This document shows positions 3,924 through 55,708 of a DNA stretch of 64,000 nt, in pieces. Positions within the stretch are counted from its first letter, which is position 1, and each line of letters opens with the position of its first letter. Origin of the DNA: Trichodelitschia bisporula (Eukaryota); NCBI GenBank assembly GCA_010356995.1, contig ML996692.1:817933-881932 (forward strand). The letters run 5' to 3'. The translations under genes and the position numbers were made by a program. The notes beneath the pieces were generated by a model. That model was not told the DNA's origin. It did not search any database and worked only from the letters and a program-made list of their open reading frames with translations.

Positions 3924-5879
3924 CTAGACCTTGTACAGCTCTGGATGCTCTGCCTTGATGATATCGGCACCCTGTTCTTTTATTAGCATCCGCTCAGCAG
4001 ACCCGGCAAGCAACTCACCTTTTCAGCAACCATGTACACAGCGTTCTGAATCCGACAGTCTGGGATGACAGGGAATACGCTCGCGTCAATGACCCGCAGA
4101 CCCTCCACGCCGTGTACCTTGAGCGAAGAATCCACAACGCCCTCGTCGATGCTCTTGGACAGACGAAGCGTACCACAAGGATCTGAGATCATCAGCAAAC
4201 TATCCGTCGGAAGAACAAAAGAAGAAGAAAACTAACGGAAGCCTGTCTGTGCCCGCCCCAGAATCATCTTGTTCATCGCCTCGTCCGACTGGCGAGGCAT
4301 CGGCCAGGGATAGTCCTCGCCGATGATGTCCTTCATCCCCTCACCCGTGGTGAGTATATCATCGACGAACCGAACCCCCTCCCTCAACCCCACCAAATCC
4401 AACGCATCCGAAAAGAAATTCAAATTAATCTCCGGCTGCTCCCTCGGATCCGTCGACATCAACCGCACGTACCCATTCTTCGACACGGGCCTCAACAAGT
4501 CCACAATCACCGTCAAGCTATCCCCGGTCGGCGGTGTCGGAATATGCCACTGAAACGCATCCGCAAACATCGGCACAAAGTCAATCTCGAAATGCGGCTG
4601 CCCACCAGGACCGAACGGATCGATACCCCCGTTCGCCGCCTTCCGCGCCCGATACTCTGCTGACCGCGCGAGGTACCCGTCGATGCGCGGCAGGCCCACC
4701 ATCTCCAGCAGCCCGCTGCTAAGCGGCCCGTCCTTCCGCGCGCGGTACGCGGACACGGCGCCCTCGCGCGCCGGCCCCGCCCGCAGCAGGTGGCTGTCCA
4801 GGCCGAGCCCGTCCTTGAGCCGGAACACGTGCGCGAGAATTGGGTGGTCGAGCAGGTTCTCGCCGACGTGCTTGCTGACCACCTTCGGCTCTATGCCATG
4901 CGTGGCTAGCTGGTCCACCGGGCCGATGCCGGAGAGGAGCAGTAGCTTGGGCGACTCGAAGACGCCGGAGGAGAGGATGACTTCGGATTTGGCGCTGAAG
5001 GTGTAGGAGCGGGCGTCTGGGCCGATGACGGTGACGCCGGTGACGCGTGAGCCGGAGAAGACGAGGGACTGGGCGATGGTGGAGGACATGAGTGTTACGT
5101 TTGTCTTGTCTTCCAGGTAGGACCAGGAGGACGAGCGCACGCCGGCGTAGATGCTGTTCACGCTCTTCGTCAGGCCGTGCATCGCACCGTTATAAATATC
5201 ATCCGTCAGCGCCCCCCCCTTGCTCACCCACGCCTGCTCCAGCGCCTCGCGGAACGGTCTGAGCTCCGGCAGCAGACTCGCATGGGAGACATGAATCGGC
5301 CCGCTCGTCCCAATATGCTTCAAGCTCTCGGGATACAAGCCCTCGTCGTCATGGTACGTCGCCGGCTTATCGAAATACTCGCGACACGCCTCCCAACTCC
5401 AGGTCTCGCCGCCGTACGCGCTCCACTCGTCAAACGTCTCCTTGCTGCCGCGGATCCAGGTATAGTAGTTGAGGCACGAGGACCCGCCCAGGACGCGGCC
5501 GCGGGTGTTCGGCTTCTCCACCCGCGTGTACTCTGGCCGGTCGATCAGTGTGCATTTGTAGGCCCAGTCGTATTCGCTGCCGCGCAGTTCGAAGGCGCGC
5601 GCTGGAGTGGTGATCTCGGGGATTTCGGCGGGGTTGCTGGAGGACCTGGGTGAGAAGGAGAAGGATCGTTAGGAGGAGGAAACGTACTGCTTCCCGGCTT
5701 CGATCACCAGGACCGAGACTTTGGGGTTCTCGGCCAGACGCCCGGCGACTGCGCATCCGGCGGTTCCACCTGGGGAGTTAGCTGGAGCTGGTGCAGGCTG
5801 CTGGACGGAACATACCGCCGACGACGATGAAGTCGAAAGCTGCAGGGGCTTCTTCGGGGGAGATCATGGGGTGGACCAT
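3924..5879 (-). CDS. Formate oxidase-family GMC flavoprotein oxidoreductase (5 exons)
   Basis: ATG 5879; introns about 5770-5815, 5646(or 5637)-5687, 4183-4236 and 3972-4018; stop TAG 3924. FAD motif FDFIVVGGGTAG, EKPNTRGRVLGGSS, spliced TGFHPCGT (catalytic His) and PDCRIQN. Arg sits at the second catalytic position, as in the His-Arg pair of Aspergillus oryzae formate oxidase. C-terminus ADIIKAEHPELYKV. Confidence 0.9.
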
Positions 5880-6017
5880 TTTGCTAGGGTAAGGCTGGGC
5901 AAGGCTGGATGGACTTCGAGGCGGAACTGAGTGCTGGTAGAAGGCGAGATCTCGCTGAGGCTGAACGAGGCTCGAAGCTGTGGTGATGGTGGTGCTGTAC
6001 GGTCTCGTACGACAGGG

Positions 6018-6026
6018 CTTTTATAT
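6018..6026 (-). promoter_or_regulatory. Putative TATA box (ATATAAAAG) of the GMC oxidase gene
   Basis: cttttatat on the + strand, about 140 bp upstream of ATG 5879, inside the shared divergent intergenic region. Confidence 0.5.
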
Positions 6027-6824
6027 CCCTTCCACCGTATCCTCATCCTCGTTAACAACGTCCCTTCCAGGACTGCGAACTCTCCATCTCGGACTATGAC
6101 TTCATCACCTCTGTTCTTCATCCTCATCTCCACAAAAGTGGGGTGCTCCCAAACCCCTAGCGCATAACTCACGATGACCAATCCCGCTGACCTGCTTGCT
6201 CAGAACCATCTCCATCAGAGCCGTCCAAACATACGCTTTAATCGCTCTACCACTCCCATCCGCCCAAATGTCACTGGTTGTGTTCATGAGGGGGCAACCT
6301 TACAGTCCTATGATGTCGAGGATTCTGCCCGGCTCGGCGGCACGTCGCATGAAGCCTTGCAAGGCTATATCTCGACCCATACCCGGATACCCGATCGCGC
6401 CCACTGTTACTCGGCGCCGGGGTGGCTTATACACACGGTGACAGATGCGGGGAGCGGACCGGGTGCCGACACGTGTCCGACTCGGAGTTCGCAATAGGGG
6501 GTGTTTCGATATTTTTTCTCCTGGATTGAGAGACTCGATCATCTGAAACCCGAGGGCGTCATTATTTCCGACATGGTATGTGGTGTTGTTAATCCCGACC
6601 CCGAAGCCGGAGCATTGTCCGAGGACGTAGGTGGGTCTTGGTAAGCGCCACTCAGCCTTGTGGCAGGGATGTGTGACGACGGAGAAGTGGTGAGATGGAT
6701 TGGGACATGCCATTGGTGAGTATTGTTGAGGGAGAGGTCAAGATATGACGTCTAACGTACGGTATGTTCGCAGTGAGCTATTCAGCAGCATCTCTTCACT
6801 GATTCCAGTTCCAACCTCAATCCA

Positions 6825-8694
6825 GTGTCTTCAACCCCATCAACCTCCTCCCTCCCCTCCTCCCTCCCCTCCACCACCCCCTCCATCACCCACTCCACGC
6901 CCCCCATCCCTCCCTCCCCNNNNNNNNNNNNNNNNNNNNNNNNNNNNNNNNNNNNNNNNNNNNNNNNNNNNNNNNNNNNNNNNNNNNNNNNNNNNNNNNN
7001 GCCTCGGGCCAAGCACCACCTCCCCGCGCGGCCTCCTCCTCCTCCAAGACACGCAGCTCCTCCAAACTCTCGCACACTTCAACCGCGAACGCATCCCAGA
7101 ACGCGTAGTCCACGCCCACGCCGTCGGCGCATGAGGCACCTTCCGCGCCACGCACGACGCAAGCCACCTCACGAACGCCGCCTTCCTGCGCAGGGACACG
7201 GAGAGTAAAGTCCTACTGCGCATATCGACCGTGGCGCCGGAGCGCGGTGGCGCGGAGACGGTGCGCGATGTAAAGGGGTGGGGGATCAAGATCTTCACCA
7301 GCGAGGGGAACCAAGATTTCGTGTTTAATAGCATCGTGAGTTGCTCGTCGTGTCAGGACATGATACTGATTTCCCCAAGCCCGTCTTCTTCGTCCGCGAC
7401 CCCATCAAATTCCCCAGCCTAAACCGAAGCCACAAACGGGATCCCGCGACAAACGCAGCGGACGCAGCCATGGTACTCCCCAATCTAATCCCGTCCACAG
7501 TTCTGGGACTTCCACACCACGCACCAAGAAGGCATCCACACCCTCATGGTGCTCTTCACCGCCCGCGGCACCCCAGCCTCCCTACGCCAAATCCACTCCT
7601 ACAGCGGACACACCTACAAGCTCACCCGCCCCGATGGCTCCTTCCACTACGCCAAGCTCACCTTCCGCTCTAAGCAGGGCATCCGCACCCTCACCGCCGC
7701 CGAGGCAAGTACGACCGCGGGAACCGACCCCGACTTCCACGCCCGCGACATGCGCGCCGCGATTGAAGGTGGCGACTTCCCAGCCTGGACGCTGTGCGCC
7801 CAAGCCATGACGCCGGCGCAGGCGGAAGCCGCCGCGGTGAACGTATCCGACATGACGCACGTATGGCCGCAGTCGGAGTACCCTTTGCAAGAACAAGGCT
7901 CCCTAGAATTAAACCGCAATCCAGGCAATTTCTTCGCAGAGATCGAGCAGGCGGCCTTCTCGCCGAGCATCATGGTGCCAGGCTTTGCCCCGAGCGCGGA
8001 TCCAAGTACGTCGGCCGCGCTTTCCTTCCTTTCGTTCTGGCTTGGGTCGTTCTTGCCTAGGGTTTGTGGGCAAGGAAGGTACCAATGCGGTGCAGTGCTC
8101 CAGGTGCGCGTGTTCGCCTACCCCGACGCCGCGCGCTACCACCTCGGCGCAAACTATCAACTCCTCCCATCAAACCGGCCCGTCGTGCCCGTATATGCGC
8201 CGTACCAGCGCGACGGCTTCGCGCGAACGGACGGGAACTACGGCGGGGATCCGAACTACGTGGGCTCCGCCCTGCGGGCCGTGAAGTTCGCGGAGCCCTC
8301 GGCGGCAGGGGCGGGCGTCGGGTACGAGGAGTGGGTTGGGCGGGTGAGTGAGTTTGCAACTTCGGTAGGGGAGGGGGATTTTGTGCAGCCGCGGGCATTT
8401 TGGGAGGTGTTGAAGGGGACGGGGCAGGATAGGGAGCTTGTGGGGAATTTGGTTGCCGATTTGGGAAGGGTGGGGGATGGGGGGATTAGGAAGCGGGCGG
8501 TGGAGATGTTTAGTAGGGTTGATGGGGAGCTTGGGGGACGTGTTAGGGAGGGATTGAGGGGTGTGGGTTTGGGTTGGAGTATGAATGTTTATGTTAGCTT
8601 TACTACTGTGCAATTCTGGTCTTCCCACTTACGCTCATGTCCTCCTTCTAACGTCTATCTAAGAAACAAGAGTCGGATCAGTTTGAGTCGTTGA
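6825..8694 (+). pseudogene. Small-subunit heme catalase with an in-frame stop (probable pseudogene or damaged allele; partly in an N gap)
   Basis: [28 protein letters not shown] (distal His), DFVFNSIPVFFVRDP (Asn), FWDF, and RVFAYPDAARY (proximal Tyr). TGA at 7132-7134 where GAWG is expected. Introns 7336-7379, 7473-7500 and 8006-8095. N gap 6920-7000. Confidence 0.75.
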
Positions 8695-9010
8695 ATGACA
8701 TTATCAGGGGTCGTGACCGTTGATATCTAGCCGACGATTGAGGCTCCATTTCCACTGACACTCGGGATGAGTCATTCTCTGTAGTATAAAACATTAGCTA
8801 TTAGCTTAGCATTCATGTTAGCTACTAGCTTCTAGTTCTATCCGCCAGATTCAATGCAATGGTGTCTCACAGCGCTGCCACCAGCGCTAGCACCCACGCC
8901 GCTGCATGCCCCGTTATGACCTATCCGCCGGATTCAATGCAGCAATGTCCTACCGCGTTCCCTCCAGCCTCAGCACCAACGTCCCCTCATGCCCCGTTCG
9001 AATCCTCTCC

Positions 9011-11447
9011 CTAGTCAAGGGGTGTGAGGCAAGATCCCTCACACACCTCCACAGCAGCCCCATCCACGCCTTCCTGCCCCCCAGCACCAACATTATACCC
9101 ACAAGCCACCAGTCTCCCCTCACTGATGTCCGACCAACGCACCTCCCTGATCCCATCATCTTTCGGCGTATCCACCGCCTCAAACTTGTCATACAAGCGC
9201 CGACCATTCCGGTCATATCGCTCTTCCCGAACCTCGCGATCGCGCTTCGCATACTCAAGCACAATCTCGGGATCGGCATTGTCCACGTAAACATCATCGA
9301 GCACGCGTGCTGTGCGCCACGGCGACATTACGGGCTGCCATGACGTCGCGGCCGAGATCTCGAGCATGCGCAGGGCGATGATGGCGCCCTCCTTCAGATC
9401 GTCACGGGTCAAAGTGGGCAAGATCGTTGGATCTTCTGGCAGCGGGGCAAGATCGGGGGAGGGCGGATCGGCGGGTTTCTCGTCGTAGTCGAGCCCGTTG
9501 GCGCCGTAGACGGCCTCGTCCTCATGATTGCCGTGCCAGTCGTTGCCATCTTCCTCGTACTCGTGGTCCACATCATAGTCATCATACTCCTCCCCCACCT
9601 TCCGCGCCGCATTCCGTTTCACTGCCCGCTTCCTCTTCTTCCCCCTGTCCTCCCACCGCTGCGACGCGTCCCAGCGCTGCTCGAACGGGAACGGCGGTGC
9701 AGAGGTCGGATCATTGTCGTACACACACTCGACAGCCGCGAGACGGACCTTTGAGCGCCACGTCTCGGGATCCTCGGGTTCGGACGTCGGCTCAGGGGCC
9801 TCGGGAGACTCGGGTGGAGCTTCTGGCTCCTTAGGTTTCTTGCCTTTGGTCCGCTTGCCCAGCGAGTTCATGATCATCCGGCGCGAGCTCGGCACATCCA
9901 GTCGAGCGCGCTTGGCAGTGCTGGGAGGTTCGTCTTCATCACTAGCATCGCGTGAGTGCTTTGCGCCTGCATGTGCATCATGGGTGGGTGCAACGGGTCC
10001 GATCAGGGTCGGCAATGGTTGCGGTTCGGCATCGCCGTTCACAATGCCAAGCCGCTCAAGTAATTCCCAGCGGGCGCGGACCAGTTCCGCATCGACGGCT
10101 TCAGCTCTACCGCGGTGGGCCGTGCCGTTCGGTTCATGGCTATTTGGAGTGCCGGTATTGGCTTGGTTTCCAGACTCGCTCTCCGTCACGCCGTCGGCCT
10201 GCTCCAACCGGGCGAGATCCCGCAAGTTTGCATTTGCATGTAGAAGCCCCTGCTCTTTGAGCCTCTTGAGTTTGCTCGCCTGGCGACGGCGTTTATTTCG
10301 CTCTTGAGTGTTCTTCCGACCTTGACCAGGGGGCACAGTAGTCACTGTCAAAGCAGTGGATACCTTATTGGAAGGGACCTTGCCGTTAGTCATCGGAGCC
10401 CGAGCCGGAAGCTCTTCCGGTGCTAGGTCGGATGACGAATCAGAATCGGATTCGGACCCAGATTCCTCACTGGACGAAGAAGGGCTAAGTGAGTCGGAGT
10501 CAGAGTCGGAGTCGGATTCAGAGTCGGGGCCGGAGTTGGGCTCGGAGTCGGAGTCGGCGTCGGAGCTAGAGCCCGAGTCCAACGGCGATTCGGACTTGGA
10601 CTTCCTGGCGCCGTCCAAAACCGGGACTCTTAGATTGGATTTAGAGACCTTCCGACCGACATTGGCATCAACCTCCTTCGCCTCACTCCCGGAGTCCGAT
10701 TCCGCCTCGCGATCCTCATCAGATTCCGTCTCTTCAGAAAACACATCCGATTCACTTTCCGGCAACCCGAAGTCTTCATCATCCTCGTCGTCGGAGTCAA
10801 GATCCGCCCCAGCGCTCGCAAACTGGACCCTCTTGTCGCTCACTTTACTGCGGTTACGCGAGTCAGGCGAGGCGGCGCTTTCCGAACTGAGCGTCACCTG
10901 GCGAGAATTGCGACGGAGTTCGTCGAGGAATGCGGCGAAGCTTTCCGCGTCAACGGTGTTGGGAAGCGGGAGATCTGCAAGTTCCATATCTCCGCCTTGA
11001 GCAAGCCTCGGTCTCCGAGGCGGTATTATGACTGTCGGCCGTACAGGCTGGCTGAGCCGCGGTCGGCCAAACGCCACTCCATCGTGCAAGTGTCGACCGT
11101 CGGCGGCTATCTGGTCCCGACCAGTGATTCGTCGGCTTTTGAGCTCGTTCGTTTGCAGCGGGCGGATTCTGAGACATTAGTAGGATTCAAACAAAAGCAT
11201 GCAAAACGTACGTGATTTGGTCGTCGGCATGCAGGACGTCTCGGACGTACTGCCATTGCAGGCACTCGAATCCGTTGAGCTCCAAAATGTAGTCCTCCAG
11301 CGACCATTCCTCAGACTCCAGCGAAAAGACCTGGTCTATCTCGGAAAGAAGACCGGCGACGGTTAAGTGCTTGTTGTCGTCGTTGACTAGCCAGGTGACG
11401 AGCGAAGGCGGCAGCCCGTGGCGGCACACCTCGACGAAAAGCCGCAT
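9011..11447 (-). CDS. Coilin-like nuclear protein (N-terminal ubiquitin-like domain, acidic Ser-rich centre, C-terminal Tudor-like domain)
   Basis: ATG 11447 MRLFVEVCRHGLP...LEDYILELNGFECL; a 43-nt intron (11169-11211) joins it to the 692-aa ORF. SDS tracts, basic TQERNKRRR. C-terminal LPTL...EGAIIALRMLEISAATSWQPVMSPWRTARV resembles the coilin Tudor core. Confidence 0.7.
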
Positions 11448-13303
11448 GGGGACGGTGACTGAGGAGAATCGACCACGAGCAAGAGATGAAGAGGGGAGCG
11501 ATCCTGAGGTCGTCGTGGGGTTTGAGGTCTTCATGGGCTCTGAGGGGCCCCGAAAAAATCGGGCAGTTGTGGAGCGATACTACGTACGCCGTTGATGCTC
11601 AGGAAAGGTCGAACTGGTCGATTTCAGTGGGTCCGAGCGCTTCTGGCGCGCTTGCGGATGCCGTCCCAGAACGACGCGTTCCCGCGTGGCGGGAGCTAAG
11701 CCCAATTTGGTAACTACCCACGATGGAGCAGTCGGCGACTATTCTTCGTGGTCTCACGAAACTCGTGTAAATCCCCACTCTCTCCAATTCACGTTTATTT
11801 TGTGAGGCTGTTATCCTTGCTTGATGAGAACCGTATCTCCAACCAACGCGGTGTTATCCATGAGGAAGACTCCTGAAGCCGCATAAGACCACTGAGCCCA
11901 TGACGCATCTAGACTTCTCAGGACAAATATCTGCTTGATAATGGACTAAAGCCCCAACTCAAACCTTCCGTAGAGTACCTTAGTGTCTGGCAAAAAGTAC
12001 TGGAGAATCGGCCATTGTTGGCCTGAAATCGGCCACCTATCATCTCATAACGGTTCTTCCCAATGCCTTCCGGAGGAATCACAGCCATCTTCGGAGTCGG
12101 TGTTCTCATTTGTCCTAGCCCTACGGAAAATCATGGACTTAGACCAGTAGCTTTTATTACCAAGTTAGGGATGGCGTTTGGTGCTCAGGAATGGAGCAGA
12201 GTATTTACGACATCGCATCGGAGCTAGAGCGCATGGGGACACGGACTGGTTAGCGAGCCGAAGTAGTCGAGAACAGATGTTAACGCGACTACATGTGTAA
12301 GCCCAAAGGGGACGACATATGTCAATTCAGCATGTTACAGGTTCAGAGCTCTCGACCCTCATAGAGCGGCTGCTCTACCTCGTGGTGTATGTTCCACTCC
12401 CGGCTCCTACGGGTACTACGTACAACAACAACGGCACTGAACCTCATACGTAGATTCTGACCGTTGAAGCGTATGTCGGTTCTCATTGATGCGTGGGCTG
12501 GAGAGAAATAGTGCAGATATAGCAGGCATCGATGACAGGCATATGCTGTCTTTCCATTTACCGGCATCGATGGAAGACACCTAAGTACAGAGATAATGTA
12601 GCGAGCAATATCCCGAGCGTACTACAGTCCAGAGTTACGTCAATAGCCCCAAGAACCATGTATGGGCAAAGTGAAGCTGTCGCTGGTCGTAGTGGAGGTT
12701 CTGGACTACGAGTTTTGATCCCCGTGCGAAGAGTTTCCCCACCCGTTTCCCCACCCCGACGGCCCGGTATCAAGGCCAAAACTATCCGTCTTCTGATCCA
12801 CCTCGCTATGTTGATCATAACGGGAGGTTCACTGGTGACTCCGAGTCCGGAGTCAGCACCGGTGACGGCATATCATAGACCCTGTGCACGTCATCAGGGC
12901 CACGCGCCCTGAAGGTGGGACTCTTGCTTGAACCCGAGGCAGGAGAGGTGGACCTGGCCGGGGCAGGAGACCAGTTGGTGTTGGGGACTCGGGGTTCCGG
13001 GGACTATGAATCTTTCTCCACTCTTCCTATGGGTTAGCAGTCTTGAAACACCGAGCTACTTTGCTACGGTCCCGTAGCAGACCCGAGTCTAGAGTCCATA
13101 CATTCATACCCTACCCAGAGTCGTTGTAGGGAGACCAGAGTCCTCGGTACGGCGGATTACCCACTGTTGTAGACTAATTGAATCAACCCGCTCGTCTCAA
13201 TCCCACCCACCCCCAACTCACACAGACTCCCGTCCTCGCTCATATTACAACCCAATGCATTGAGCTCGATCATAAAACGCAATATTCAAAGCCACCATCA
13301 TCA

Positions 13304-24628: not shown

Positions 24629-27600
24629 TTATTTCGCTCTCCCTTCATCTCCACCTGTATGCTGACGTTGGGGCCCCTGATGCTCCTTAACCTCTTCCTT
24701 AACATGTTCCTTCAACTTCTCCTTTGCGTCCTTCTCCATCTCTTCCTTTGCGTCCTGCTTTACCTCCTGTTCCTTTACCACGTCCAATCCTTCCATCAAA
24801 ACCTCACTCGGCCTATCCCCTTGCACTCCTCCCTTCAACTGTTGTGTCGACCTATCCACTTCCACTCCTTCCGTCCCTTCCTTAACCTCCATCCGCGGCC
24901 TCGTCTTCTCCGTCTTCTTCAGCAACTCCTCAATCTTCGGCAGCAACTCCGGAATACGAAACGGCTTACTAACAACATCATTCATCCCCACCTCCACTAG
25001 CGCCTTAATCTGCTCCTCGCGCGCATTCGCCGTCACCGCAATAATCGGCACATGCCCACGGAGCACACCCTCCTTCTCCCACTCCCGAATCTTGCGCGTA
25101 CACGCCAGCCCATCCATAACCGGCATCTCCTGATCCATGAGTACGACGCCTAGGTTCAGCAGTCCTGCCGGTGTTTTGGCGGACGGGGACGACGATGTCG
25201 ACGAGGTCGAGGGCGAGCTGAGAGCAGACGAGTGGAGAACGGGTGAGCGCGCAACGGAGCTGTCAATAGGGTCGGGCGTGCTAGTTTCCCTTGGCGGCTC
25301 GTCCGGCTCCGCCCCGCGGTGCCACCAGTTCGAGCGCCGGAGGAGATCGAGGCACTCGCCCCCGTGGTTGGCAACGTGCACGACGTACCCGACGCGGGAG
25401 AGCTGCTTCTGCAGGACGCGTTGGTTGACGAGGTTGTCCTGTTCGTTAGCAAGTGGTAGATATCATAAAAGGGGAAACGTACTTCGACAACAAGCACCTC
25501 GACGGGCTTTTTTCCTTCCACGGACGTTTCAGGGGTGGTTTTAGACGATTCAACGGGCGAGGCTACCACTGTTATGGCCTTTTCGCGCTCCTTCTCCATT
25601 TCTTCCTCCTTTTCCTTTTCCTTTCCCTTCCCTTTCTCCTTCTCCTTCTCTTTCTCCTTACGCTTCTTCGTCGTCCCCAACCCCCGATCCAGCCCAGGAA
25701 AAACCCCTCCCTCCGCTCCCGGCGGATTGGTCGCATGTCTCGCAGCGACATAAAACGCAAACGTGCTCCCACGCCCCGCCTCACTCGACACCCCAATCTC
25801 ACCCCCCTGAAGCTCCGTCAGCTCGCGCGAGATAAACAAGCCCAGCCCAGACCCGCCATACTGCACATGGGTGCGCGGGCTCGCCTGGGAGAAGCGCAAA
25901 AACAGCGTCTTCTTCTCCGCGTCCGTGAGCCCGCGGCCCGTGTCGCTAACCGAGAACGACACGTACACGATCTCGCCGTCGCCCCAGTCGGACGCTGTCA
26001 GTAGACCCTCAGCTCCGTTTGGCCGACGGGACGGGAAGTAGTCGACGGGACGGTTGGGGTCGAAAGAGGGACGCTCGTGCGAGGCGGCAAGGGTCACGGC
26101 GATGGTGCGGCGCTTCTCGGTTGTTGTGAACTTGATCGCGTTGGTGGTGAGGTTGATGAGCACCTGGAGGACGCGTTGGGGGTCGAGTTTGACCCAGTCG
26201 ACGCCGAGCTCGGCGACGGATTCATGGACGAAGAAGCGGATCTCGATGTCGGCGGACTGCATTTCGTTCTCGAACATCTTCAACGCGCGCTGGACGACCG
26301 CCTTGGGCTGGACATCTACCGGTGTGACCATTAGCATGTGCGAGTCCAGCTTCGATAGCGTGAGCACATCGTCGACTATGCGCTTCTGGTGCTGGGCGCA
26401 GAAGATGATGGTTTGCGCGGCGTCGATATTACTGGTTACGAGGTCGGAATCCATGTGTGCATTACCACTGGCGACAAATTCGTTCAGCGTAGTAAGGATC
26501 TCGTCTGCGCACTGCAATATCGCGGACAGCGGATTGCGCATCTCGTGGCTCGTGATGTCGATAAAATTTTCCTGCTGGCGCTTAAGCTCCACGGCCTCCT
26601 CCATCTTGCGCTTCTGAAAACCCTCGGCCCACTTCTGCTCGCTAATATTGGTCAGGTTGCCGAAGACACTCTTAAGTCCGCTTTCGCTGCCGTATAAGAC
26701 CTCACTGTCAGTGTCTCTTTCTGGATACGCGCTGAAGAGCACCCAGGTATCGCTGCGGTGTCCGTGGCTGTTATCCCATTGCGCTTTGAAGCGGAATTCC
26801 GCCGTTACGGGCTTACACTGCTCGACGAGTTCCTGCCACAGCAGACGAACACGCGGCTGATCCTCCTCACTGACGGCTTCAATCCACCGATCCGTGCTTA
26901 CGCTATCCTTCGGCACGCGTGTGATCTCGTACCATGTATCGTTGCAGTACGTGATATGGCCCTGAGAATCCGCTATGAACAGGCCTGCGGGCGAAAATTC
27001 AGCCATACGGGTAAAGCGAGTTTCGCTATCCCGGGCCTCCTGCGTCCGTGCCGCCAGCTGCCGTGACAGTTCAAACCGGTCCAGAGCCGCCAGGCGCGCC
27101 GCCTTTTGTCCGCGCCGAATCTCATCCTCGAAGAGGACCACGCTTGCTAAGGAAGTCCCCAACTGGCGGGTAAGAAGTTGTAGGAATAGAATGTAGTCAT
27201 CGTCGTACGGTCGTCGCGGGTTGACACCAATCACCAGGAATCCTAGGATAGAATCACCGGTAGTCAGATGCACGGGGCATACTACAACGGCGCGACACGG
27301 ATCGGGGAATCCGCGCCAATGAATCCCTTCAAGCATGCTATATGGGATTTCGAGCACAGGATCCGACACGGGATAGGGATCGGCAGTCTCGTCGTCACCT
27401 TCGAGGCCAAAGTTCTCGTCCTGCAAGTCCGTCACGCGAAGCAAAAGTGGGCGATCCCCTTTCATAGCCTCTCGGAAGACGGGCCCAAAGCCTTCGGTTC
27501 CAGTTTTGAGGTCGATCTGAGAAGGCGCGCAGACATGGCCCTCTGGCACACCCAAGGCATTTTCCAGTACACATTGCTTGGTCCCCATGAGGGAGTTGGA

Positions 27601-29276
27601 GTGCATTGACGACGAATCCGAGTCGAATTCGTCGCACACCGAGTAGACCAAGACGAAGGGCGTGTCGTACTTGTTGGAATCGAGAGCATCCACCACCTCT
27701 TTCCAGAACGCCTTGACATCCCGCGCCGTCGCCGTGCGCTCGCCAACTTCACGTAGGGTGTGCATGCGGCGTTCAGCAATCTTTCGACGGGTCTTCTCGA
27801 AAGCAGGATTATATAGGCCAGTAACGGCGCCATCTCCGCCAACCATGGGGATTATGGACCACGAAAAATACGTCTCTTCCAAGTAATGCGAGCGGTTCAT
27901 GAATAAACGGTCGTCATCCTGAGGGATCAGTCTCCAAATATGGATAGGAAAACGGTCATTTACCTTCATGGTTGCCTGGCCGGTGAGGCGAGCGTTCAAA
28001 AACACGTCCTTGACTGACTCCCAAATCTCAGGCCACGCCTCACGGTACATTTGCCCCATGAGTCGCGGATGCTTCTGACCAGCGAGTTGCACATACGCCT
28101 CGTTGTAGATGGCAACAAGATCTTCGCCCCAGTACATGGCGGCCGGGTGTGGACTCGCCATCACTAAGTTGCACATCTGGCGCAGGTCTGACGACCAGAA
28201 CTCAATGGGGCCCAGCTTCGTCGACGCCCAGTCAACACTACGCGCAAAACGGATATGCCGTGGCATGTTATCGGTCAGGGGCAGTCGGGTCCAGTCGAAG
28301 AAGCCGATTTCAGCAGTGGTGCTAAACACGTGTTAGTAACCGAAGTCCCAATGGCACTGGGAACCCACAAGTTTACATACGAGAACGTATCTATTGAGGT
28401 CAATACATCGAGCGTCGAAGCGGGCAGAGCTATCGAAAGATCACGGGCGCCATTGGAGGTAGTGTCAGGGCTTTCAGCCATCGGTTGAGTCGGCTCAACA
28501 GTTTCGACGATGGTCTCAGGGGGCACAGTGGCGGGACCGAAGTAATCGGCATGCCCTTCGCGCAGCTCTGAGGCATGCGCTGGGCTTTGGTGAATCATAT
28601 GACTGTCTGGACGGAAAGGAGAGCGAACCATCGAATTAGAATCGGGCGGCTCTGTCGCAGCATACGATGGAGGTGCAGAGAAGCTCGGTGAGGCACTGGC
28701 GACACGGAACCGCTTGCGCATAGTGTAACATGACCAGGACACGCCTCCGTGGATGAACGGGGCAAGCGGTAGAGACGGTTCGAGGGCCTCGCCATTGAGC
28801 GCAGCGCTGAGAATCCATGTCTTGAACTGCCTGAAGCCTCGTGCCGGATCGGATGTAGGAGGTGCAAACTCGCTATGTTTGCTGCCGCCGCTACAGACGA
28901 GATCGAATAGTGCAGGGTTGAGCCGTAGGGAGGAGTTGGCAAAGGGTATTTGCAGCGGACCGTGAACCCAGTTTAGAGGGTCGGCGAGATCCACGACCAA
29001 CGTAGGGCGAGGATCATTGTCGAGTAGCTCAAAGATAGGGATCTGCGAGAGAAGGCGTGAGGTGTCCCGTTCCGCCTATGTCTGGTTAGAGTGTGAAGGT
29101 GAGCACATGGGCGAAGGACGCTCTACCTCTGGTGACAGTCGTGCTAGGGTCGAGTGGTCGCCCGACGACTTGCGTCCGGACAAACCACCGCTCACAGGGC
29201 TCGAACCCGAATAGCTCCCCCGCGCCAGTGTAACCGTCTTTATTGAGCTCTCCTCGGCATGTGTCTTGCTAAGCAT
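24629..29276 (-). CDS. Hybrid histidine kinase (PAS-like/GAF-like/PAS sensors, HisKA, HATPase, receiver)
   Basis: H-box FIDITSHEMRNPL, N-box QVLINLTTNAIKFT, DTGRG, GGSGLGL; receiver VLVVEDN...LMDQEMPVMDG...SKPF. Introns about 29076-29126, 28322-28380, 27919-27963 and 25439-25482. The start is less certain. Confidence 0.92.
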
Positions 29277-33960: not shown

Positions 33961-36900
33961 ATGGAGGACGATATCGCTGCCGTCGCAGCTCCCCTACCAT
34001 CATATGAGGTGGCAAAGAACCTCTTTTTGGCTGAACTCCCACCAGACCAGAAGGAGGTCTTCAAGGCTACGACCCTTGACAACATTTTCTCACAAGCCAA
34101 GTCGACTTTCCAAAAGCGTGTTGACGAGAACCACGTCCTGCGAGCCCAACGGAAGCTGAAACCTTTGATCGACTGCCTGGAAGGCTATGGCCAGGCAATG
34201 GACACTCTGTCGCAAACGTCCACCCTCATCCTCTGTCCCATCTGGGGAAGCATCAGAGTGGTGTTACACGTGAGCAATACGATGCCCACGCGCGATTTCC
34301 TAACTAACTCTCCAGGCCGCCCAACAGTACGAAAAGTATTACGATAAAATTGTCGACATGTATGCTCGAATTGGCGACAATTTGCCTCGTTTCCTTGTGT
34401 ACGAGCATTTATTCCGTAGCCACAACCGAGTGCTCACAGCCCTCACCGAAGCCTACCTGGACATCATTCGTTTTTCCACGGAGGCCATCAAAATCTTCCA
34501 AGATAGCAAAGAGGCTGGCGGCAGCGCACTTTACAGGCCTACCCATTTTCTCAAGAGACGCTGGGCCCAGTTCGACGATCGTTTCGACGCCTACATCACC
34601 AGTTTCCACCGCCACCAAACGCAAGTCGCCGAGGAAGCAAAGGTTGCCCACTTCATTGAAGCGAAGAAATCCCAGGAACTTGAACTTGCCAGTCGTGAGC
34701 TGCAAAAACGGACGGTAAGGACCGATCAACGAAGGAAAACCCTCGCCCTTCTGTCTGGAATCAACTATCGTGAGATGCACGGTAGAGTGCGCAAGCTCAG
34801 GCATGAAGGAACTGGCGCTTGGCTTACTGATGATTATGACTTTCGGGCATGGCTGGATGAGAAATTCTCGAACTCGTACTGCATCTTTGGAATTCCCGGA
34901 TCAGGCAAGACAGTTTTGGCTTCGGCGGTGATAGACGCCATTTCACCACTCTATCTGGAAGCGTCCACGGTGTTAGCATTTCACTACTGCTACTACGCCG
35001 ACCGTGCCACCTTGACGCCTCGCAACCTTTTTGGAAACATCTCTCGACAGATCCTTGACCGAGTGGATCTCATGTTCCCCGGCGTTGAAAAACTCACTCG
35101 CTCCGCGGTCGACAGCGGCTTCCCACTAAGTACCGAGGACACCTTAAGTGTGTTACTGGATGCCTTGAGGTACTTCAGCAAAGTCTTTTTGGTCTGGGAC
35201 GGGCTCGACGAATTGGCTGCCGAGGATCAGAAGATCGTCGTCGAAGCGATTCCCAAAATTCTTGCGGCATCTGCCAACGTCAAGCTCGTAATCCTTTGTA
35301 GAAGAGAGGAGCATTATCTTCGTCTCGCGCTTCAGTCATATCCTTCTGTGGAAATTACATCCGGCGACAACTCTGCCGACATATCATTGTATGTCAATTC
35401 AATGGTCGAAACAAAAATTGCGGAAGGGGAACTGCTCATCGAAAGCGAAGCGCTCAAGGAAGAGGTTATTGAGCGGCTAATTGTGGGAGCAAAGGACATG
35501 TGGGTCTTCCGCTTGGGAAAATAGAGTACTGCTGATATCAAACAGGTTTCTTTGGGTCCGTTTCCAACTTGAAGAGCTGTGTGAAGCGCTGAATGAGACG
35601 GAAATTCGAACTAAATTGGGCGACCTTCCTCGAGATCTCGCAGACACCTATGGACGGATCGTAGAGAAGGTCTACAAGTCCAAGGATGGCAAGCAAAAGC
35701 TTGCACGAGCCCGCAAGCTGTTCCAATGGATCATCACTGCCCGTCGTCCCATGACTGCTGCCGAGCTGGGAGAGGCGCTTGCACTGGAGGTCGGCGATCG
35801 CACGTTGGACCAACAGCGAGTTCCTGCCAATACGTCTCGAATGCTGGAATGCTGCGCCAATCTTATCGTGTACGACCGGCATGATAACACTGTTCGACTC
35901 GCACATCACACCGTTATGGAGTTCCTGCATCGCATGGACCATCCTCTCCTTCAACAAACTGACCTAGCTCTTGAGAAGGGCGAGGCTGCTGCATACGTTG
36001 GAGACTTGTGCGCTACATATCTTTCTATGGACGACTTTGAGACTCAGCTGGTTCGTGCGGCTGATGCCACTTCAACGATGAAGACGTCAATCCCGGCGGC
36101 GCAACATGCCATGTGGAGTCATGTTCCGCTCGGCAATATGGCGACCAAGCTGGCATCCGTCTTCGGCAGGTCGAACAGGCCCGAGAGCCATTTCACCCTC
36201 AAGGTCCCTGCCCGCATGGAGAAGAAAGACTTTAGCAAACGCTACGCGCTTTTGAAATACGTGTCCGCAAATTGGGCGTGGCATACAACGCACTGCCTCG
36301 ATGCAGAGAGAGAGAGCAACGGCAGCTACTCTCAATTTCTCGACCTTACCTTCCACCGGCGTCTCCCTTTTGATTTCAGGCCGTGGATCGATGGCATCGA
36401 AGCAGCTCCCACGGACGGAAGAGCACAATCACAGAATATGTTCTACTGGGCGATCAACCAAGACCTTCCTCTCTTCCTCAAAATGCTCAGAAGATCACCA
36501 TACGGGGACCTTACCAAGCAATATCTTACCCAGCGGGAGGCTGATACTAAGCCTCTGAACACCTTCGTCACCTCACTTGTCACTAACTCCCCCCAAGTTT
36601 TCAGGTATTTCCTAGATTCGGGCATCGGCTTCAACATGTGGCGATATACCGTCACGCCCTCATACTGGGCAAAAGCAATCGAGCATGTTGCGTGCAATTA
36701 CAACTACGAAGATTTCTCCCTTTTTCTCCGCCTCATGGTACCCACCAAGGCAAAGGGTGTAGAACTTTCCCTGAACCCAGTCTTATGCGAATGTGCCAGA
36801 ATCGGCAACGCAAACGGCGTCCGCAACCTTCTCAAAATGAAAGCCACTCCAAGCATTCGATTCCAAAACCCCGCCTATCCAGACGTCAGTCTCTACGCCA

Positions 36901-38003
36901 TCGAATGGGCGCTAGTCTCCGAAGATGCGGACACCATCCACGCGCTCATGGACCATGAGCTCGACGATCCACCGCGCACCCTCGTCATCGCCTTCATCAT
37001 CGCCCTGCACAAAAACCAACACGACATCCTGCGCCTCCTCCACGGCTTCTTCGAAACCGGCGACCAGCTCACCATGACGCTCGAAGAGGCCTGGTACTCG
37101 GAATCCCCTGACCCCATCTCGCTCATCCTCTCCACCCTCCGCCTCGTCGACGACAGCAACATGCCCCCCGGCATCCTGTTCCAGGAACACATCGACCAGG
37201 TGTACGCCGGCAAGCCGCGCGAGTACCTGAGTCTGCTCCGCGCCCTCGCCGCCGGCCTCACCTCCTCCCCCAAACTCTCCGTCGAAACCCTCCTGTACAA
37301 GCTGCTCCATGCCCACCCGCCGGGCTTCGACCTCATGGCCGCCATCACGGCGCACCTGCTCCCGCGCCCCAGCACCGCTGCTCCGGACCCAGCGGGCAAC
37401 AATGCGTTCCACCTCGCGCTCGCGCTGGGCGACGCCGAGGACCTGGAGGATGTGTGCGAGGCGCTGGGGCGGCCGGAGCGGGATCTACGCTTCTTGTTGT
37501 TCCAGCCGAATGCGGCGGGGATTACGCCGCTGGAGACGGCGACGTGGAGGGATGATGGCGCGTGGCTTATGGCTTTGCTTAAGGGACTTAAGGGGTGGGA
37601 GCCGCAGGTGTGTGGGAAGAGTGTTGCGAGGGTGTTGCATAAGGTTGTGGATATTGTGGTGGAGAAGGAGGAGTGGTTGGGGTTTGTGGATGCGAATAAG
37701 GCGCAGATGGTGTTGGCGATGAAGGAGGCGGTGCCGCGGTTCAATGACCCGGTGCTCGGGAAGGAGTTGATGGAGAGGCTGGAGGATTTGGTTGTTGTTG
37801 AGGTGGCGAAGGAGGAGGAGAAGAAGGAGGAGGAGAAGAAGGAGGAGGAGAAGAAGGAGGAGGAGAAGAAGGAGGAGGAGGAGGAGAAGGTGGAGGAAGA
37901 GGATAAGAGAATTGTGGAGAAAAAGAAGGTGGTGCCGGGAGGCTGGGAGGAGGACGACACGGGCGATCCGGACTGGGGTGGAGGTGGGAAGTGGAAAGCT
38001 TGA
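33961..38003 (+). CDS. NACHT-domain STAND/NLR-like protein with helical N-terminal domain and degenerate ankyrin-like C-terminus
   Basis: ATG 33961; 46-nt introns 34270-34315 and 35500-35545. PIWGSIRVVL N-terminal motif, EGTGAWL, Walker A GIPGSGKT, Walker B FLVWDGLDE, MFLWV, VRLAHHTV; ankyrin-like GNNAFHLA and GITPLETA. Confidence 0.88.
37809..37868 (+). repeat. 15-bp coding minisatellite (AAGGAGGAGGAGAAG)4 encoding KEEEK repeats
   Basis: Read directly in the 3' end of the NACHT gene. Confidence 0.9.
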
Positions 38004-52936: not shown

Positions 52937-55641
52937 CTAACCAGTCCCCTTCTCCATATGTTCTAGCCGAATGCTCACGGCTCGCCTGTGGGCTTCCAGT
53001 TCCTCAACCTTGGCCAATTGCATAACGGCGCTGCCGATGTTCTTCAAGCCCTCGGGTGAGAGATTAGACGAGGTGATGTGCTTGACATATGATCCGAGAT
53101 TGACACCCGAGTACTGCTTCGCATAGCCATATGTGGCTATCAAGGTTAGATTTGCCCGTAAAGGAGGGGCAGAACTTACGCAAAGAATGATTTACGCCCG
53201 CTGAGTAGTCGCCCACGCTCTCCGGCGTCCACGGCCCCACAAACACACTGCCCGCATTCTGCACCAGCTCAACGATCTTCTCCGGCTCATGGACCTGCAG
53301 GATCAGATGCTCGGGCGCATACAGGTTGCTGTACTCCATCGCCTCCTTGATATCCTTGACGAGCAGCGTAACCGAGTGTGAAATCGCCCCACGAACGATA
53401 TCAACGCGCGGCAGCGCATTCGCCTGGCGATCGACCTCGTTCTCAATAGATTGTAACTGTTCCGCGGTCAAATCAACTGCGATAAGCACAACCTGCGAAT
53501 CGACGCCGTGCTCGGCCTGGGAGAGCAAATCACTGGCCACGAACGCCGGGTTAGCCGTCTTGTCCGCGATGACAAGCACCTCACTCGGGCCGGCCGGCAT
53601 GTCGATACTAACACCCGCACTGGTGTCGTTGGCCACAACCATCTTAGCCGCCGTCACGAACTGATTCCCTGGTCCCAGAATCTTGTCCACCTTACTGACG
53701 CTCTCAGTGCCGTACGCCATGGCTGCCACAGCCTGCGCGCCGCCCGCGAGCACGATGCTCTGCGCGCCGACTTTGTGCGCGACATAGACGATCTCCGGCG
53801 TAATACTGCCATCGGCGCGCGGCGGGCTGGCGATGACGATGGTCTTGCAGCCGGCGACCATGGCCGGCACGCCGAGCATGAGCGCCGTTGAGGGCAGCAC
53901 GGCGGTGCCGCCTGGGACGTAAAGCCCGACGCGCTCAATGGGGCGCGAGAAGCGCGAGCACACGACACCTGGCATCGTCTCAACGGTCAGGGGCTTGTCT
54001 GCCTGCGCGGCGTGGAAGCGGCGGATGTTCTCGAAGGAGGTATCGATCGCGGCGATAGTCTCCGGGGATAGGTTCATGAGCGCTTGTTGGAAGGGGGCCT
54101 TGAGGACGGGGGATGTCAGGCTGGTAGCCTTTTCAAACTTATGCGTGTATTCGAGGACGGCGGCGTCGCCGCGGGCGCGAATGTCGGCGATGATGGGGTT
54201 TACTATACCCATAATCTTCTCGCTGGAACGCTGTGAAGGGCGCTTCAGGGCCTCCTGAATGACAGAGTTTGGTTCGGTAGCGGTGTTGAAGCGCCGCATT
54301 TCAATGCGCCCATCAATGGTACCTGCCGGATCTGAACGAGCCTTGGGCACTGAGGCCGCCTCCTTAACTTCGTCCTGGGGAGCGGAGACAGATAATTTGG
54401 CAGCCCAGGGGCCCTTTGCGTCACCTTTTCTCCGCTTCACCTTCAAATTCTTTGCGTCAAGATTCTGCTCCACCTCCTCAAGCGTGACACCGGCGGCGAC
54501 ACACTTGGTGAGGGCAAAGTACAGCAAGTCGGCTGCCTCCCATGCGACGTCTTCCTTTGTGGTGGCCTCGCATAACTCATTCGCCTCCTCCATGATTTTG
54601 GCCTGAAGCAATTTGGGATCATTGTACAGTCGGGCAGTGTATGATCCTTCCGGGGCCGAGGCCTTCCGCTTCTGGAGTGTTTGCTGAAGGCGGGAGAGGC
54701 CGCTGTACTCTCCAAAGCAAGTCGCGGTGGAAAGGTGACAGAAACCTGACAGTGTGAGACTAGGCGACGCCCCAGGAGAAGTTGTTACCTTTGCCCTTCT
54801 GCCGTACAACAAACCTCACGCAGTCTTGGTCGCAGTCAAACCCAATCTTGATCAACTCTTGTGTATCTCCGCTCGTCGCTCCCTTGTACCAGAGGCCCCG
54901 CTTCCGACTTTGATATACGCCCGCGCCGGTCCGGAGACTTTCGGACACGCTCTTTTCGCTGCTGTACACCAACCCCAGCGCAATTCCCCTCTCATCCGTC
55001 ACCAGCGTCGGAAAGAGGCCGTCCACTCGGTCGCTCTCCACGTTCGCAATCAACAGCTTCGCGATATCGATGCGTTGAGGGTCCGCTTCAGGATTGACGG
55101 TCAGGCGCTCCGCCGAGATCACAGGCACGGCGCCAGAGTTCATGACCTTGAGAAGGTTCTCCTCTGTCGCCTTTGAGAGCGAAATGAAAACGGGTGGCCT
55201 TTCTCCTCCGTACTCCTTCAGCCACGCCTCAACGAGCTCAATGTCCGCCACGGCCTCGGCATATACGCCGACGGTGGTTCCGGCAACGGCATTGATAATA
55301 TCTTCTCTCGTTGACTCATCGGAGACTGTCACGGCGACTCTGTCCAAATCCAGATTCTTCACGCTTTTGAGTTGCTCCAGTTGTTGCAGAGTAACGAACA
55401 CCTTTACTGCACCGGCATCGAGCAGTGAGAGGACCTCCTCGACCGAGGGCACTGAGTGGACATCGATGTAGGTGTTGAACCGCGCAAATGTTTGTCGAAG
55501 AAAGGACAAGGCATCCTCAACTTGGTTTGCGCCGACTTTCGTGAAAACGCTACCGATGAAGGAGAGTTGCTGCAGGCTCAGACCTTGAGTGGAGGTTGCG
55601 TAAGTCGCGATGTCGACTTGCGGGAGTATGGTGGCCGACAT
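52937..55641 (-). CDS. HIS4: Trifunctional histidine biosynthesis protein (PR-AMP cyclohydrolase, PR-ATP pyrophosphatase, histidinol dehydrogenase)
   Basis: YQSRKRGLWYKGATSG, DCDQD, FCH; SYTARL, KIMEEA; GLYVPGGTA, IDMPAGPSE, SQAEHG, YAPEHL, GDYSAGVNHSL, EELEAHRRAV; two introns. Confidence 0.96.
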
Positions 55642-55708
55642 GATGCCTGGAAAGTTATTTGTATAATGGCCTCCTATTCAATGGCGACTGGAGAAAGGAG
55701 GTATGTAA

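What the first reader, a model, noticed from the sequence alone, without database searches (positions are those of the whole stretch)
3924..8694. Head-to-head formate oxidase and catalase: a candidate two-gene C1-oxidation module
Seen: the GMC gene has His (TGFHP) and Arg (PDCRIQN, codon 4052-4054) at the catalytic pair, plus PNTRG. It is transcribed divergently from a small-subunit catalase across about 950 bp that hold a TATA box, many CGG triplets and a near-CRE (TGACGTCT, 6746). Established: His-Arg is the signature of formate oxidase (formate + O2 -> CO2 + H2O2), and catalase compound I both removes H2O2 and oxidizes formate or methanol peroxidatically. Inference: a co-regulated cassette in which the catalase spends the oxidase's H2O2, possibly on a second formate. 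I do not know of a functional description of this pairing. The catalase also has Phe in place of the usual Gly before the active-site Asn (VFN vs VGN), hinting at a specialised clade.
Basis: partly seen in the sequence, partly recalled or inferred. Interest (0 to 1): 0.8.

Follow-up and report, generated by a model that had tools for sequence, protein, structure and literature searches.

The report
Conserved fungal formate oxidase-catalase pair
Many fungi, including Cryptococcus and Botrytis, keep a gene for a peroxide-making formate-oxidase-type enzyme next to a catalase gene and switch them on together, probably so that the catalase clears the peroxide; in this genome the catalase half is broken.

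Summary
The pair is real and conserved, but this copy is half-dead. The GMC gene is intact and belongs to the formate oxidase family (763 bits to A. oryzae FOx, next best 227; His-Arg pair, Arg87, Ser94 kept). It lies outside the subclade of the assayed enzyme (58% identity to its proxy), so formate activity is inferred. The catalase is a transcribed pseudogene: an in-frame TGA (7132) in both DNA and both RNA runs, a 28-nt intron remnant, and 11 of 163 conserved columns changed (0 of 99 homologues as many). The two genes carry consecutive or near-consecutive accessions in 14 other genera across five classes, including Cryptococcus SMG1/CAT2 and Botrytis Bccat6. They are head-to-head in 3 of 5 informative metagenome loci, and unlinked in most Aspergillus and Penicillium checked. 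Published transcriptomes show co-induction (NO, 37 C, fluconazole, L-DOPA, cir1 loss); none found tests formate. The CGG, near-CRE and VFN arguments fail. Best reading: a co-regulated cytosolic oxidase plus peroxide scavenger.

The parts
3924..5879 (-). Formate-oxidase-family GMC gene, intact. Exons 5879-5816, 5769-5688, 5636-4237, 4182-4019, 3971-3924; 585 aa from the first ATG. The Rossmann motif starts near residue 15 (no room for a signal peptide) and there is no SKL-type end.
   Evidence: Exon model; introns 5637-5687 and 4183-4236 seen spliced in RNA contigs, introns 5770-5815 and 3972-4018 not seen spliced; 100% match to P0001; 763 bits to PDB 3q9t
4052..4054 (-). Arg of the His-Arg catalytic pair (PDCRIQN); the His codon is split by intron 4183-4236
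   Evidence: aligned with the Arg that is K and A in the FOx variant structures 5zu3 and 5zu2
6018..6025 (-). TATA-like TATAAAAG, 146 nt upstream of the GMC ATG
   Evidence: consensus match only
5889..5940 (+). GT-AG intron of a + strand transcript whose upstream exon overlaps the GMC 5' end, so the RNA runs antisense across the GMC start and TATA box
   Evidence: Joint in RNA contigs of X3 and X4, absent from DNA runs; sequence
6138..6203 (+). Second GT-AG intron of the + strand intergenic transcript
   Evidence: Joint in X3 and X4
6716..6773 (+). Inferred third + strand intron; holds the 'near-CRE' TGACGTCT, which overlaps a CTAAC branch motif
   Evidence: One 11-nt loose end in X4 at 6715 that matches 6774 onward; GT-AG ends; inference
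6920..7000 (.). Assembly gap of 81 N inside a C-rich tract; hides the catalase 5' end
7001..8694 (+). Yeast-type small-subunit catalase, transcribed pseudogene. Catalytic His 7111-7113, Asn 7327-7329 and proximal Tyr 8119-8121 are present. Introns 7336-7379 (spliced), 7473-7500 (28 nt) and 8006-8095. The 3' end is uncertain: the annotated partial model P0121 ends differently.
7132..7134 (+). Premature in-frame TGA; 91 of 99 homologues have Tyr, Trp or Phe in this column
   Evidence: No other letter in 4 of 4 runs laid; column census
7473..7500 (+). 28-nt intron remnant, retained in both RNA contigs; retention shifts the frame

Best explanation
A two-gene, co-regulated oxidase-plus-scavenger module, old in filamentous ascomycetes and also present in Cryptococcus. 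The GMC enzyme, with the His-Arg site and the residues that mature FAD to 8-formyl-FAD, oxidises a C1 substrate (most likely formate) with O2 and without NAD, releasing H2O2, probably in the cytosol. The head-to-head yeast-type small catalase, induced with it from the shared intergenic region, dismutates that H2O2. SHOWN here: family and residues, adjacency in many lineages, head-to-head orientation in 4 DNA loci, co-induction in two fungi (from published tables), decay of this catalase. INFERRED: substrate, cytosolic location, a shared promoter, functional coupling. In this genome the catalase is a transcribed pseudogene while the oxidase stays intact; other catalases in the genome probably cover the peroxide.
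For: GMC: 763 bits to A. oryzae FOx vs 227 for the next PDB family; 94 of 120 homologues match all three motifs, most misses being truncated gene calls or pattern misses, and one (P0101) has truly lost both arginines; the stretch holding R87, S94, L97, N98, Y99, T101 and the C-terminal F-H and R-I-Q are conserved (against residues named in PMC11236828 passages). Adjacency: consecutive accessions or locus tags in Rhizodiscina, Aulographum, Cirrosporium, Cosmosporella, Rasamsonia, Botrytis, Ciborinia, Monilinia, Bombardia, Colletotrichum plurivorum, Lasiosphaeris, Lasiosphaeria, Cryptococcus and A. sclerotiicarbonarius. Of the 17 species named in both top-120 lists, 11 are adjacent or on one contig. 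Head-to-head in L011, L014 and L016, with flanks that differ from each other and from the window. Co-induction: B. cinerea under an NO donor, log2 +5.44 and +3.17, with Bcin05g04560, 04590 and 04600 absent from the lists; C. neoformans at 37 C, +1.09 and +1.45, with flanking genes not significant; fluconazole, 2.81- and 6.67-fold; L-DOPA, +1.19 and +1.62, and cir1 loss, +2.23 and +3.58. Decay: TGA in 4 of 4 runs; 11 of 163 conserved columns changed vs median 1, max 9 in 99 homologues, against 3 of 202 for the GMC with 26 of 99 homologues as many; end branch 0.81 vs median 0.2. Redundancy: 6 catalase matches at 5 places in the genome.
Against: The window's GMC lies outside the 100%-supported subclade that holds the closest relatives of the assayed enzyme (AU p = 0.026 against joining it), at 58% identity to the proxy P0460; no enzyme of its group was found assayed. 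The assayed FOx has a 'relatively high' KM and worked best at 200 mM formate (PMC6563469), which is odd for a physiological substrate. The genome has a probable NAD-formate dehydrogenase (L028/L031, recalled motifs). No dataset with formate, methanol or oxalate induction was found. The genes are unlinked in 6 of the 17 species and in the A. flavus/oryzae, A. niger and two further Penicillium comparisons, and lie 7 loci apart in A. udagawae. No catalase lies upstream in L015 or L018/L019. The oxidase stays intact here without its partner. No shared 8-10-mer among 4 intergenic regions, and L014 has a bZIP gene between the two. In the cir1 and L-DOPA tables neighbouring genes also rise. SMG1 appears without CAT2 in the tables seen and once (-0.76, padj 0.051); Bccat6 appears without the GMC.
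Confidence: 0.6

Rival explanations
1. Shared stress regulon with another substrate: the two genes are linked because they answer the same oxidative or nitrosative signal, and the oxidase acts in vivo on a small substrate other than formate. H2O2 hand-over is then incidental.
For: All co-induction found is under general stress. High formate KM. Different subclade from the assayed enzyme, with changes near the active site such as WVPG to WIRG and FVCMFG to FVPMFA. No formate-related gene in the B. cinerea NO lists.
Against: The catalytic and cofactor-maturation residues named for FOx are kept. An FOx-subclade gene is also next to the catalase in A. sclerotiicarbonarius, so the link spans the subclade with proven formate activity. 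Generic stress genes are not usually kept adjacent across classes (own knowledge).
Confidence: 0.2
2. Peroxidatic coupling: the oxidase feeds a low H2O2 flux that keeps the catalase in compound I, which then oxidises a second formate, an alcohol, nitrite or NO.
For: Small-subunit catalases reduce compound I with ethanol, formic acid or nitrite, about 100-fold better than large-subunit ones (PMC9687031 passages). The partner in every pair seen is a small-subunit enzyme. The strongest co-induction seen is under an NO donor.
Against: No sequence feature marks the catalase as specialised: VFN parallels VYN of ordinary yeast catalases, and EasC is not among the 26 PDB hits at E <= 1e-110 of an intact orthologue. 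Any small catalase does this side reaction, so it needs no gene pairing. Nothing was measured.
Confidence: 0.12
3. Neutral inherited synteny: the genes were neighbours in an ancestor and are drifting apart; there is no functional link.
For: Loss of linkage in most Aspergillus and Penicillium checked; decay of one partner here; many pairs were picked for look-up because they shared a contig length.
Against: The flanking genes differ among the window, L011, L014 and L016 while the pair stays. The pair is also adjacent in a basidiomycete yeast whose two genes both nest among ascomycete sequences. Flanking genes do not follow the induction.
Confidence: 0.05
4. The catalase here is not dead: the TGA is an assembly error, or is edited or read through.
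For: The locus is transcribed and intron 1 is spliced; His, Asn and Tyr remain. Contigs drop rare variants, and only one RNA sample was seen. A-to-I editing of stops is known in sexual stages of some ascomycetes (recalled).
Against: TGA in 2 DNA and 2 RNA runs with no other letter; introns 2 and 3 retained; excess loss of conserved residues, including an Arg to His change in the RY(R)LG motif (its haem-propionate role is recalled).
Confidence: 0.03

Closest known systems
Aspergillus oryzae formate oxidase (PDB 3Q9T, 5ZU2, 5ZU3; GMC family, 8-formyl-FAD)
   Same: By far the best structural relative; His-Arg pair, Arg87, Ser94 and the Gln after the Arg are conserved; same length and no signal peptide.
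   Different: Different subclade. It is studied as a lone biocatalyst; the passages read mention no linked catalase gene. Whether the A. oryzae gene itself has a catalase neighbour could not be checked; its close relative in A. sclerotiicarbonarius has one.
Cryptococcus neoformans SMG1 (CNAG_05258) and CAT2 (CNAG_05256); Botrytis cinerea Bcin05g04570 and Bccat6
   Same: The same pair: SMG1 is 66% identical to the window GMC with His-Arg kept; accessions are consecutive in most Cryptococcus assemblies listed and two apart in H99. The identity of Bcin05g04570 is inferred from its GMC annotation and position.
   Different: Both genes look full-length there. The papers seen list them only as separate rows ('GMC oxidoreductase', 'catalase 2') and do not call SMG1 a formate oxidase or note the linkage.
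Tandem Perox-AlcOx pair of Colletotrichum and Magnaporthe (PMC9770985)
   Same: Head-to-head H2O2-producing oxidase plus haem enzyme, conserved and co-transcribed (passages).
   Different: There a secreted copper-radical oxidase is paired with a class II peroxidase of a kind known to activate such oxidases; here an intracellular flavo-oxidase is paired with a monofunctional catalase, over a much wider taxonomic range.
Alcohol oxidase plus catalase of methylotrophic yeasts (recalled)
   Same: A GMC C1 oxidase whose H2O2 is removed by a yeast-type small catalase; yeast catalases, one labelled peroxisomal, are the best PDB hits of an intact orthologue.
   Different: That system is peroxisomal and acts on methanol, with a His-Asn GMC site (recalled). 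Most proteins here lack an SKL-type end, and the genes are physically paired.

Membership tests
Formate oxidase (GMC, EC 1.2.3.-) | GMC fold with the closest solved relative being FOx | tested here: met
   Pfam GMC_oxred_N and _C; 763 vs 227 bits
Formate oxidase (GMC, EC 1.2.3.-) | His-Arg catalytic pair, with Phe before the His | tested here: met
Formate oxidase (GMC, EC 1.2.3.-) | Residues needed for 8-formyl-FAD maturation (Arg87, Ser94, Gln after the catalytic Arg) | tested here: met
   Alignment; roles from PMC11236828 passages
Formate oxidase (GMC, EC 1.2.3.-) | Member of the subclade that holds the assayed A. oryzae enzyme | tested here: not met
   Outside the 100% SH-aLRT clade that holds proxy P0460; AU p = 0.026, group named after the tree was seen. 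It is a member of the wider His-Arg family, not of the narrow subclade.
Formate oxidase (GMC, EC 1.2.3.-) | 8-formyl-FAD cofactor and formate:O2 oxidoreductase activity | not testable with these tools
   Needs purified enzyme
Monofunctional small-subunit haem catalase (yeast type) | Catalase domain with distal His, Asn and proximal Tyr, no DJ-1 C-terminal domain | tested here: met
Monofunctional small-subunit haem catalase (yeast type) | Uninterrupted reading frame giving a full-length protein (this copy) | tested here: not met
   TGA 7132-7134, 28-nt retained intron, no recognisable N-terminus
EasC/CnsD-type biosynthetic catalases | Closer to EasC than to canonical catalases | tested here: not met
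   EasC (9jdb) is in the library but is not among the 26 hits at E <= 1e-110 for intact orthologue P0205
Head-to-head oxidase/haem-enzyme pairs (Perox-AlcOx type) | Conserved divergent arrangement across genomes | tested here: met
   Window plus 3 of 5 informative metagenome loci. For annotated genomes only adjacency was seen, not orientation.
Head-to-head oxidase/haem-enzyme pairs (Perox-AlcOx type) | Tight co-transcription from a shared promoter | tested here: inconclusive
   Both up in 6 published comparisons in 2 fungi; only one gene seen in 5 others; no shared motif
Head-to-head oxidase/haem-enzyme pairs (Perox-AlcOx type) | Biochemical coupling of the two enzymes | not testable with these tools
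   Needs a coupled assay and mutants

The most novel reading that the evidence does not exclude
A mobile, stress-induced peroxidatic detox unit: the formate oxidase is there mainly to supply a low H2O2 flux that drives its partner catalase as a peroxidase against NO/nitrite, formate or short alcohols. The two genes were carried together from an ascomycete into Cryptococcus, where they are SMG1 and CAT2. That would give formate oxidase its first physiological role and give a biochemical function to SMG1, whose loss one paper lists as attenuating virulence (unpublished data).
Probability: 0.12. Interest if true: 0.8.

Novelty: new variant of a known kind. Interest (0 to 1): 0.55.

Why it matters
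Formate oxidase is a well-studied biocatalyst; the papers read here give no role for it in the cell. A conserved, co-induced catalase partner across five fungal classes is a genomic clue to that role. It also puts a testable enzyme label on Cryptococcus SMG1 and on the gene beside Botrytis Bccat6, two loci that recur in stress transcriptomes as anonymous rows. The chemistry (oxidase plus catalase) is textbook, and this genome's copy is half-decayed, which limits the surprise.

Tried and rejected
CGG enrichment, the near-CRE and shared intergenic k-mers: all at chance level. VFN as a mark of specialisation: F in 103 of 109 parsed homologues (119 examined) and 94 of 99 aligned, but yeast catalases have VYN. 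EasC-like biosynthetic catalase: rejected. Assembly error at the TGA: rejected, though X1 and X2 may be the source of the assembly. Prokaryote relatives: 54 pattern matches, none confirmed; this search finds close relatives only. The first catalase tree had a wrong-frame outgroup row and its root was discarded; it was rebuilt with 41 of the 53 ingroup rows. The leader-ORF scan used an intron start that was off by one; corrected, one frame with an ATG stays open up to the gap, but by eye it does not resemble a catalase N-terminus. Contig depths were not used to rank expression, and uncovered parts (about 8316-8837) prove nothing. No run is on record as RNA; X3 and X4 are taken as RNA because they alone show splice joints. 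Two of four GMC introns were also not seen spliced, so intron retention alone is weak evidence. The A. oryzae FOx sequence was not returned as a protein, so P0460 (1158 bits to 3q9t) stood in for it. PMC8756645 (passages) uses 'formate oxidase' only as a model reaction label. PMC12003167 and PMC3338752 (passages) gave nothing on the pair. Earlier findings: one unrelated hit by sequence and none by words. No structure or complex prediction was run, as no binding is claimed.
Full report
1. What is in the window. The region is fungal DNA with short introns; the source label of the 100%-identical protein P0001 is Trichodelitschia bisporula. On the - strand, five exons from 5879 to 3924 give an open 585-aa GMC oxidoreductase. 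Two of its four introns are seen spliced in RNA contigs. On the + strand, beyond an 81-N gap (6920-7000), lies a small-subunit catalase. The arrangement is head-to-head, with about 1.1 kb between the GMC ATG and the first recognisable catalase residue. The neighbours are a protein kinase and a coilin-like gene.

2. The GMC is a formate-oxidase-family protein. P0001 scores 763 bits against A. oryzae formate oxidase (3q9t, 5zu2, 5zu3) and at most 227 against any other solved GMC. The Arg at 4052-4054 aligns with the position that is Lys or Ala in the two variant structures. Arg87, Ser94 and the Gln two residues after the catalytic Arg, which PMC11236828 (passages) ties to 8-formyl-FAD formation, are kept. 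Of 120 homologues, 94 match all three motifs; most of the 26 misses are truncated gene calls or pattern misses, and one has lost both arginines. A tree of 65 selected homologues plus 3 distant outgroups (quick IQ-TREE) puts the closest relatives of the assayed enzyme (proxy P0460, 1158 bits to 3q9t) in a 100%-supported subclade. The window's protein is outside it (58% identity; AU p = 0.026 on 33 rows). It therefore works like a formate oxidase and belongs to the wider His-Arg family, but its activity is inferred.

3. The catalase here is a transcribed pseudogene. An in-frame TGA at 7132-7134 follows the catalytic His by seven codons, where 91 of 99 homologues have an aromatic residue. All four runs laid cover it with no other letter; two may be the assembly's source and two are spliced RNA from another study. 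Intron 1 is spliced. The 28-nt second intron and the 90-nt third are retained in the RNA contigs, which is weak evidence alone, since two GMC introns were also not seen spliced. Eleven of 163 columns conserved at 95% or more are changed, against a median of 1 and a maximum of 9 in 99 homologues; the GMC shows 3 of 202, with 26 of 99 homologues as high. The end branch is four times the median. The public model is a 421-aa partial protein starting after the stop. The genome holds other catalases, one of them in this window.

4. The pair is conserved. Consecutive locus tags or accessions were seen for Cirrosporium, Cosmosporella and Rasamsonia; Cryptococcus neoformans, deneoformans and deuterogattii (two apart in H99), Botrytis, Ciborinia, Monilinia and Rhizodiscina; Bombardia, Aulographum, Colletotrichum plurivorum, Lasiosphaeris and Lasiosphaeria; and A. 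sclerotiicarbonarius, whose GMC is in the FOx subclade. That is 14 genera, covering at least Dothideomycetes, Sordariomycetes, Leotiomycetes, Eurotiomycetes and Tremellomycetes (class assignments recalled). Several were picked because they shared a contig length, so this is not a frequency. A less selected count, made by eye: of 17 species named in both top-120 lists, 10 are adjacent, 1 shares a contig, and 6 are not linked (four Penicillium, A. niger, C. asianum); paralogues or different strains may hide true pairs there. Further non-adjacent cases are the A. flavus/oryzae group, A. luchuensis, tubingensis and brasiliensis, and two Penicillium; A. udagawae has the genes 7 loci apart; the Exophiala look-up compared different species and was uninformative. 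Of 11 metagenome loci, 5 lack upstream DNA and 2 show the same match layout and are counted once; 3 of the 5 informative ones have the catalase, all head-to-head, with unrelated flanks. Basidiomycete GMCs do not form one clade (AU p = 1e-8, group seen first): Cryptococcus and Saitozyma group with Chaetothyriales, and Mycena and Favolaschia with Sordariomycetes. Cryptococcus CAT2 also nests among ascomycete catalases. This fits transfer but does not prove joint transfer or a donor; old paralogy is not excluded.

5. Expression. PMC3119188 (passages) names CNAG_05258 as SMG1 and CNAG_05256 as catalase 2, both up with fluconazole. PMC13645139 (supplement rows) has both up at 37 C with flanking genes not significant. 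PMC11237718 (supplement rows from a file cut when stored, and passages) has both up with L-DOPA and in cir1 loss, but neighbours rise too; in a third table SMG1 alone is slightly down. PMC9324006 (passages and supplement rows) has Bccat6 and the adjacent GMC up under an NO donor in wild type and in the flavohaemoglobin mutant. Only one gene was seen in PMC13732481 and PMC12667325 (main-text passages), PMC6282196 (supplement rows, 6 of 10 files unreadable) and PMC13665467 (passages; supplement without gene lists); full tables there may bear on the count. None tests a C1 compound. In this genome both genes are spliced in one RNA sample, and a spliced + strand transcript crosses the GMC start and promoter.

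6. First-reader arguments that fail. CGG/CCG counts and the near-CRE are at shuffle level, and the site falls in an inferred intron. VFN is the norm in this catalase group, but yeast catalase A and two other yeast catalases have VYN, so it marks yeast-type descent, not a special function.

7. Mechanism. Most likely the oxidase turns formate and O2 into CO2 and H2O2 without NAD, and the co-induced catalase removes the H2O2. Both probably act in the cytosol, as the oxidase has no signal peptide and few homologues of either protein end in an SKL-type signal (inference). Against this stand the high formate KM of the assayed enzyme (PMC6563469, first third of the text read), a probable NAD-formate dehydrogenase in the genome (recalled motifs), and frequent loss of linkage. 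Peroxidatic use of compound I on formate or nitrite is chemically possible for small catalases (PMC9687031 passages), but nothing here shows it.

8. Novelty. Head-to-head oxidase/haem-enzyme pairs are known (PMC9770985 passages), and a GMC oxidase served by a catalase is textbook in methylotrophic yeasts (recalled). Ten searches of the open-licence library and the passages read showed no paper that describes this pair or calls SMG1 a formate oxidase. Most hits were seen only as listings, and the original FOx and SMG1 papers were not read. Verdict: a real, widely conserved, apparently undescribed gene pair of a known kind, seen here in a decaying copy; interest 0.55.

Noticed in passing
window 5858-6773 (+): A spliced + strand transcript (introns 5889-5940, 6138-6203, probably 6716-6773) overlaps the GMC 5' end and TATA box in antisense. 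It is either a very long catalase leader or a separate non-coding RNA that could damp the oxidase.
   Followed up: partly
window 58133-60245 (-): A large-subunit catalase with a DJ-1/PfpI C-terminal domain, about 50 kb from the pair.
   Followed up: no
L014:6048-6437 and 11293-12021; window 53067-55677: L014 has a bZIP gene between the catalase and the GMC, and a histidinol dehydrogenase gene just downstream. The window has a trifunctional histidine-biosynthesis gene about 45 kb away, possibly loose synteny.
   Followed up: no
P0035, P0045, P0062; P0076, P0095; P0410, P0443, P0444: His-Arg GMCs of Mycena/Favolaschia, Tremellomycetes and Mucoromycota/Zoopagomycota each nest among ascomycete sequences in different places, suggesting several transfers or old paralogy.
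   Followed up: partly
P0101 (Penicillium griseofulvum label): A family member with Gln at the catalytic Arg and His at Arg87: a natural candidate for changed substrate or lost cofactor maturation.
   Followed up: no
P0334-P0347 (Colletotrichum): A 378-aa protein labelled asqI-like or hydroxyneurosporene synthase has accessions consecutive with the catalase in several Colletotrichum assemblies: a possible lineage-specific third neighbour.
   Followed up: no
G000:C18:156484-157046 (L028, L031): Probable NAD-dependent formate dehydrogenase in the same genome, by recalled motifs.
   Followed up: partly
window 24632-29075 (-) and 34304-38000 (+): A PAS hybrid histidine kinase and a NACHT-domain gene.
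   Followed up: no
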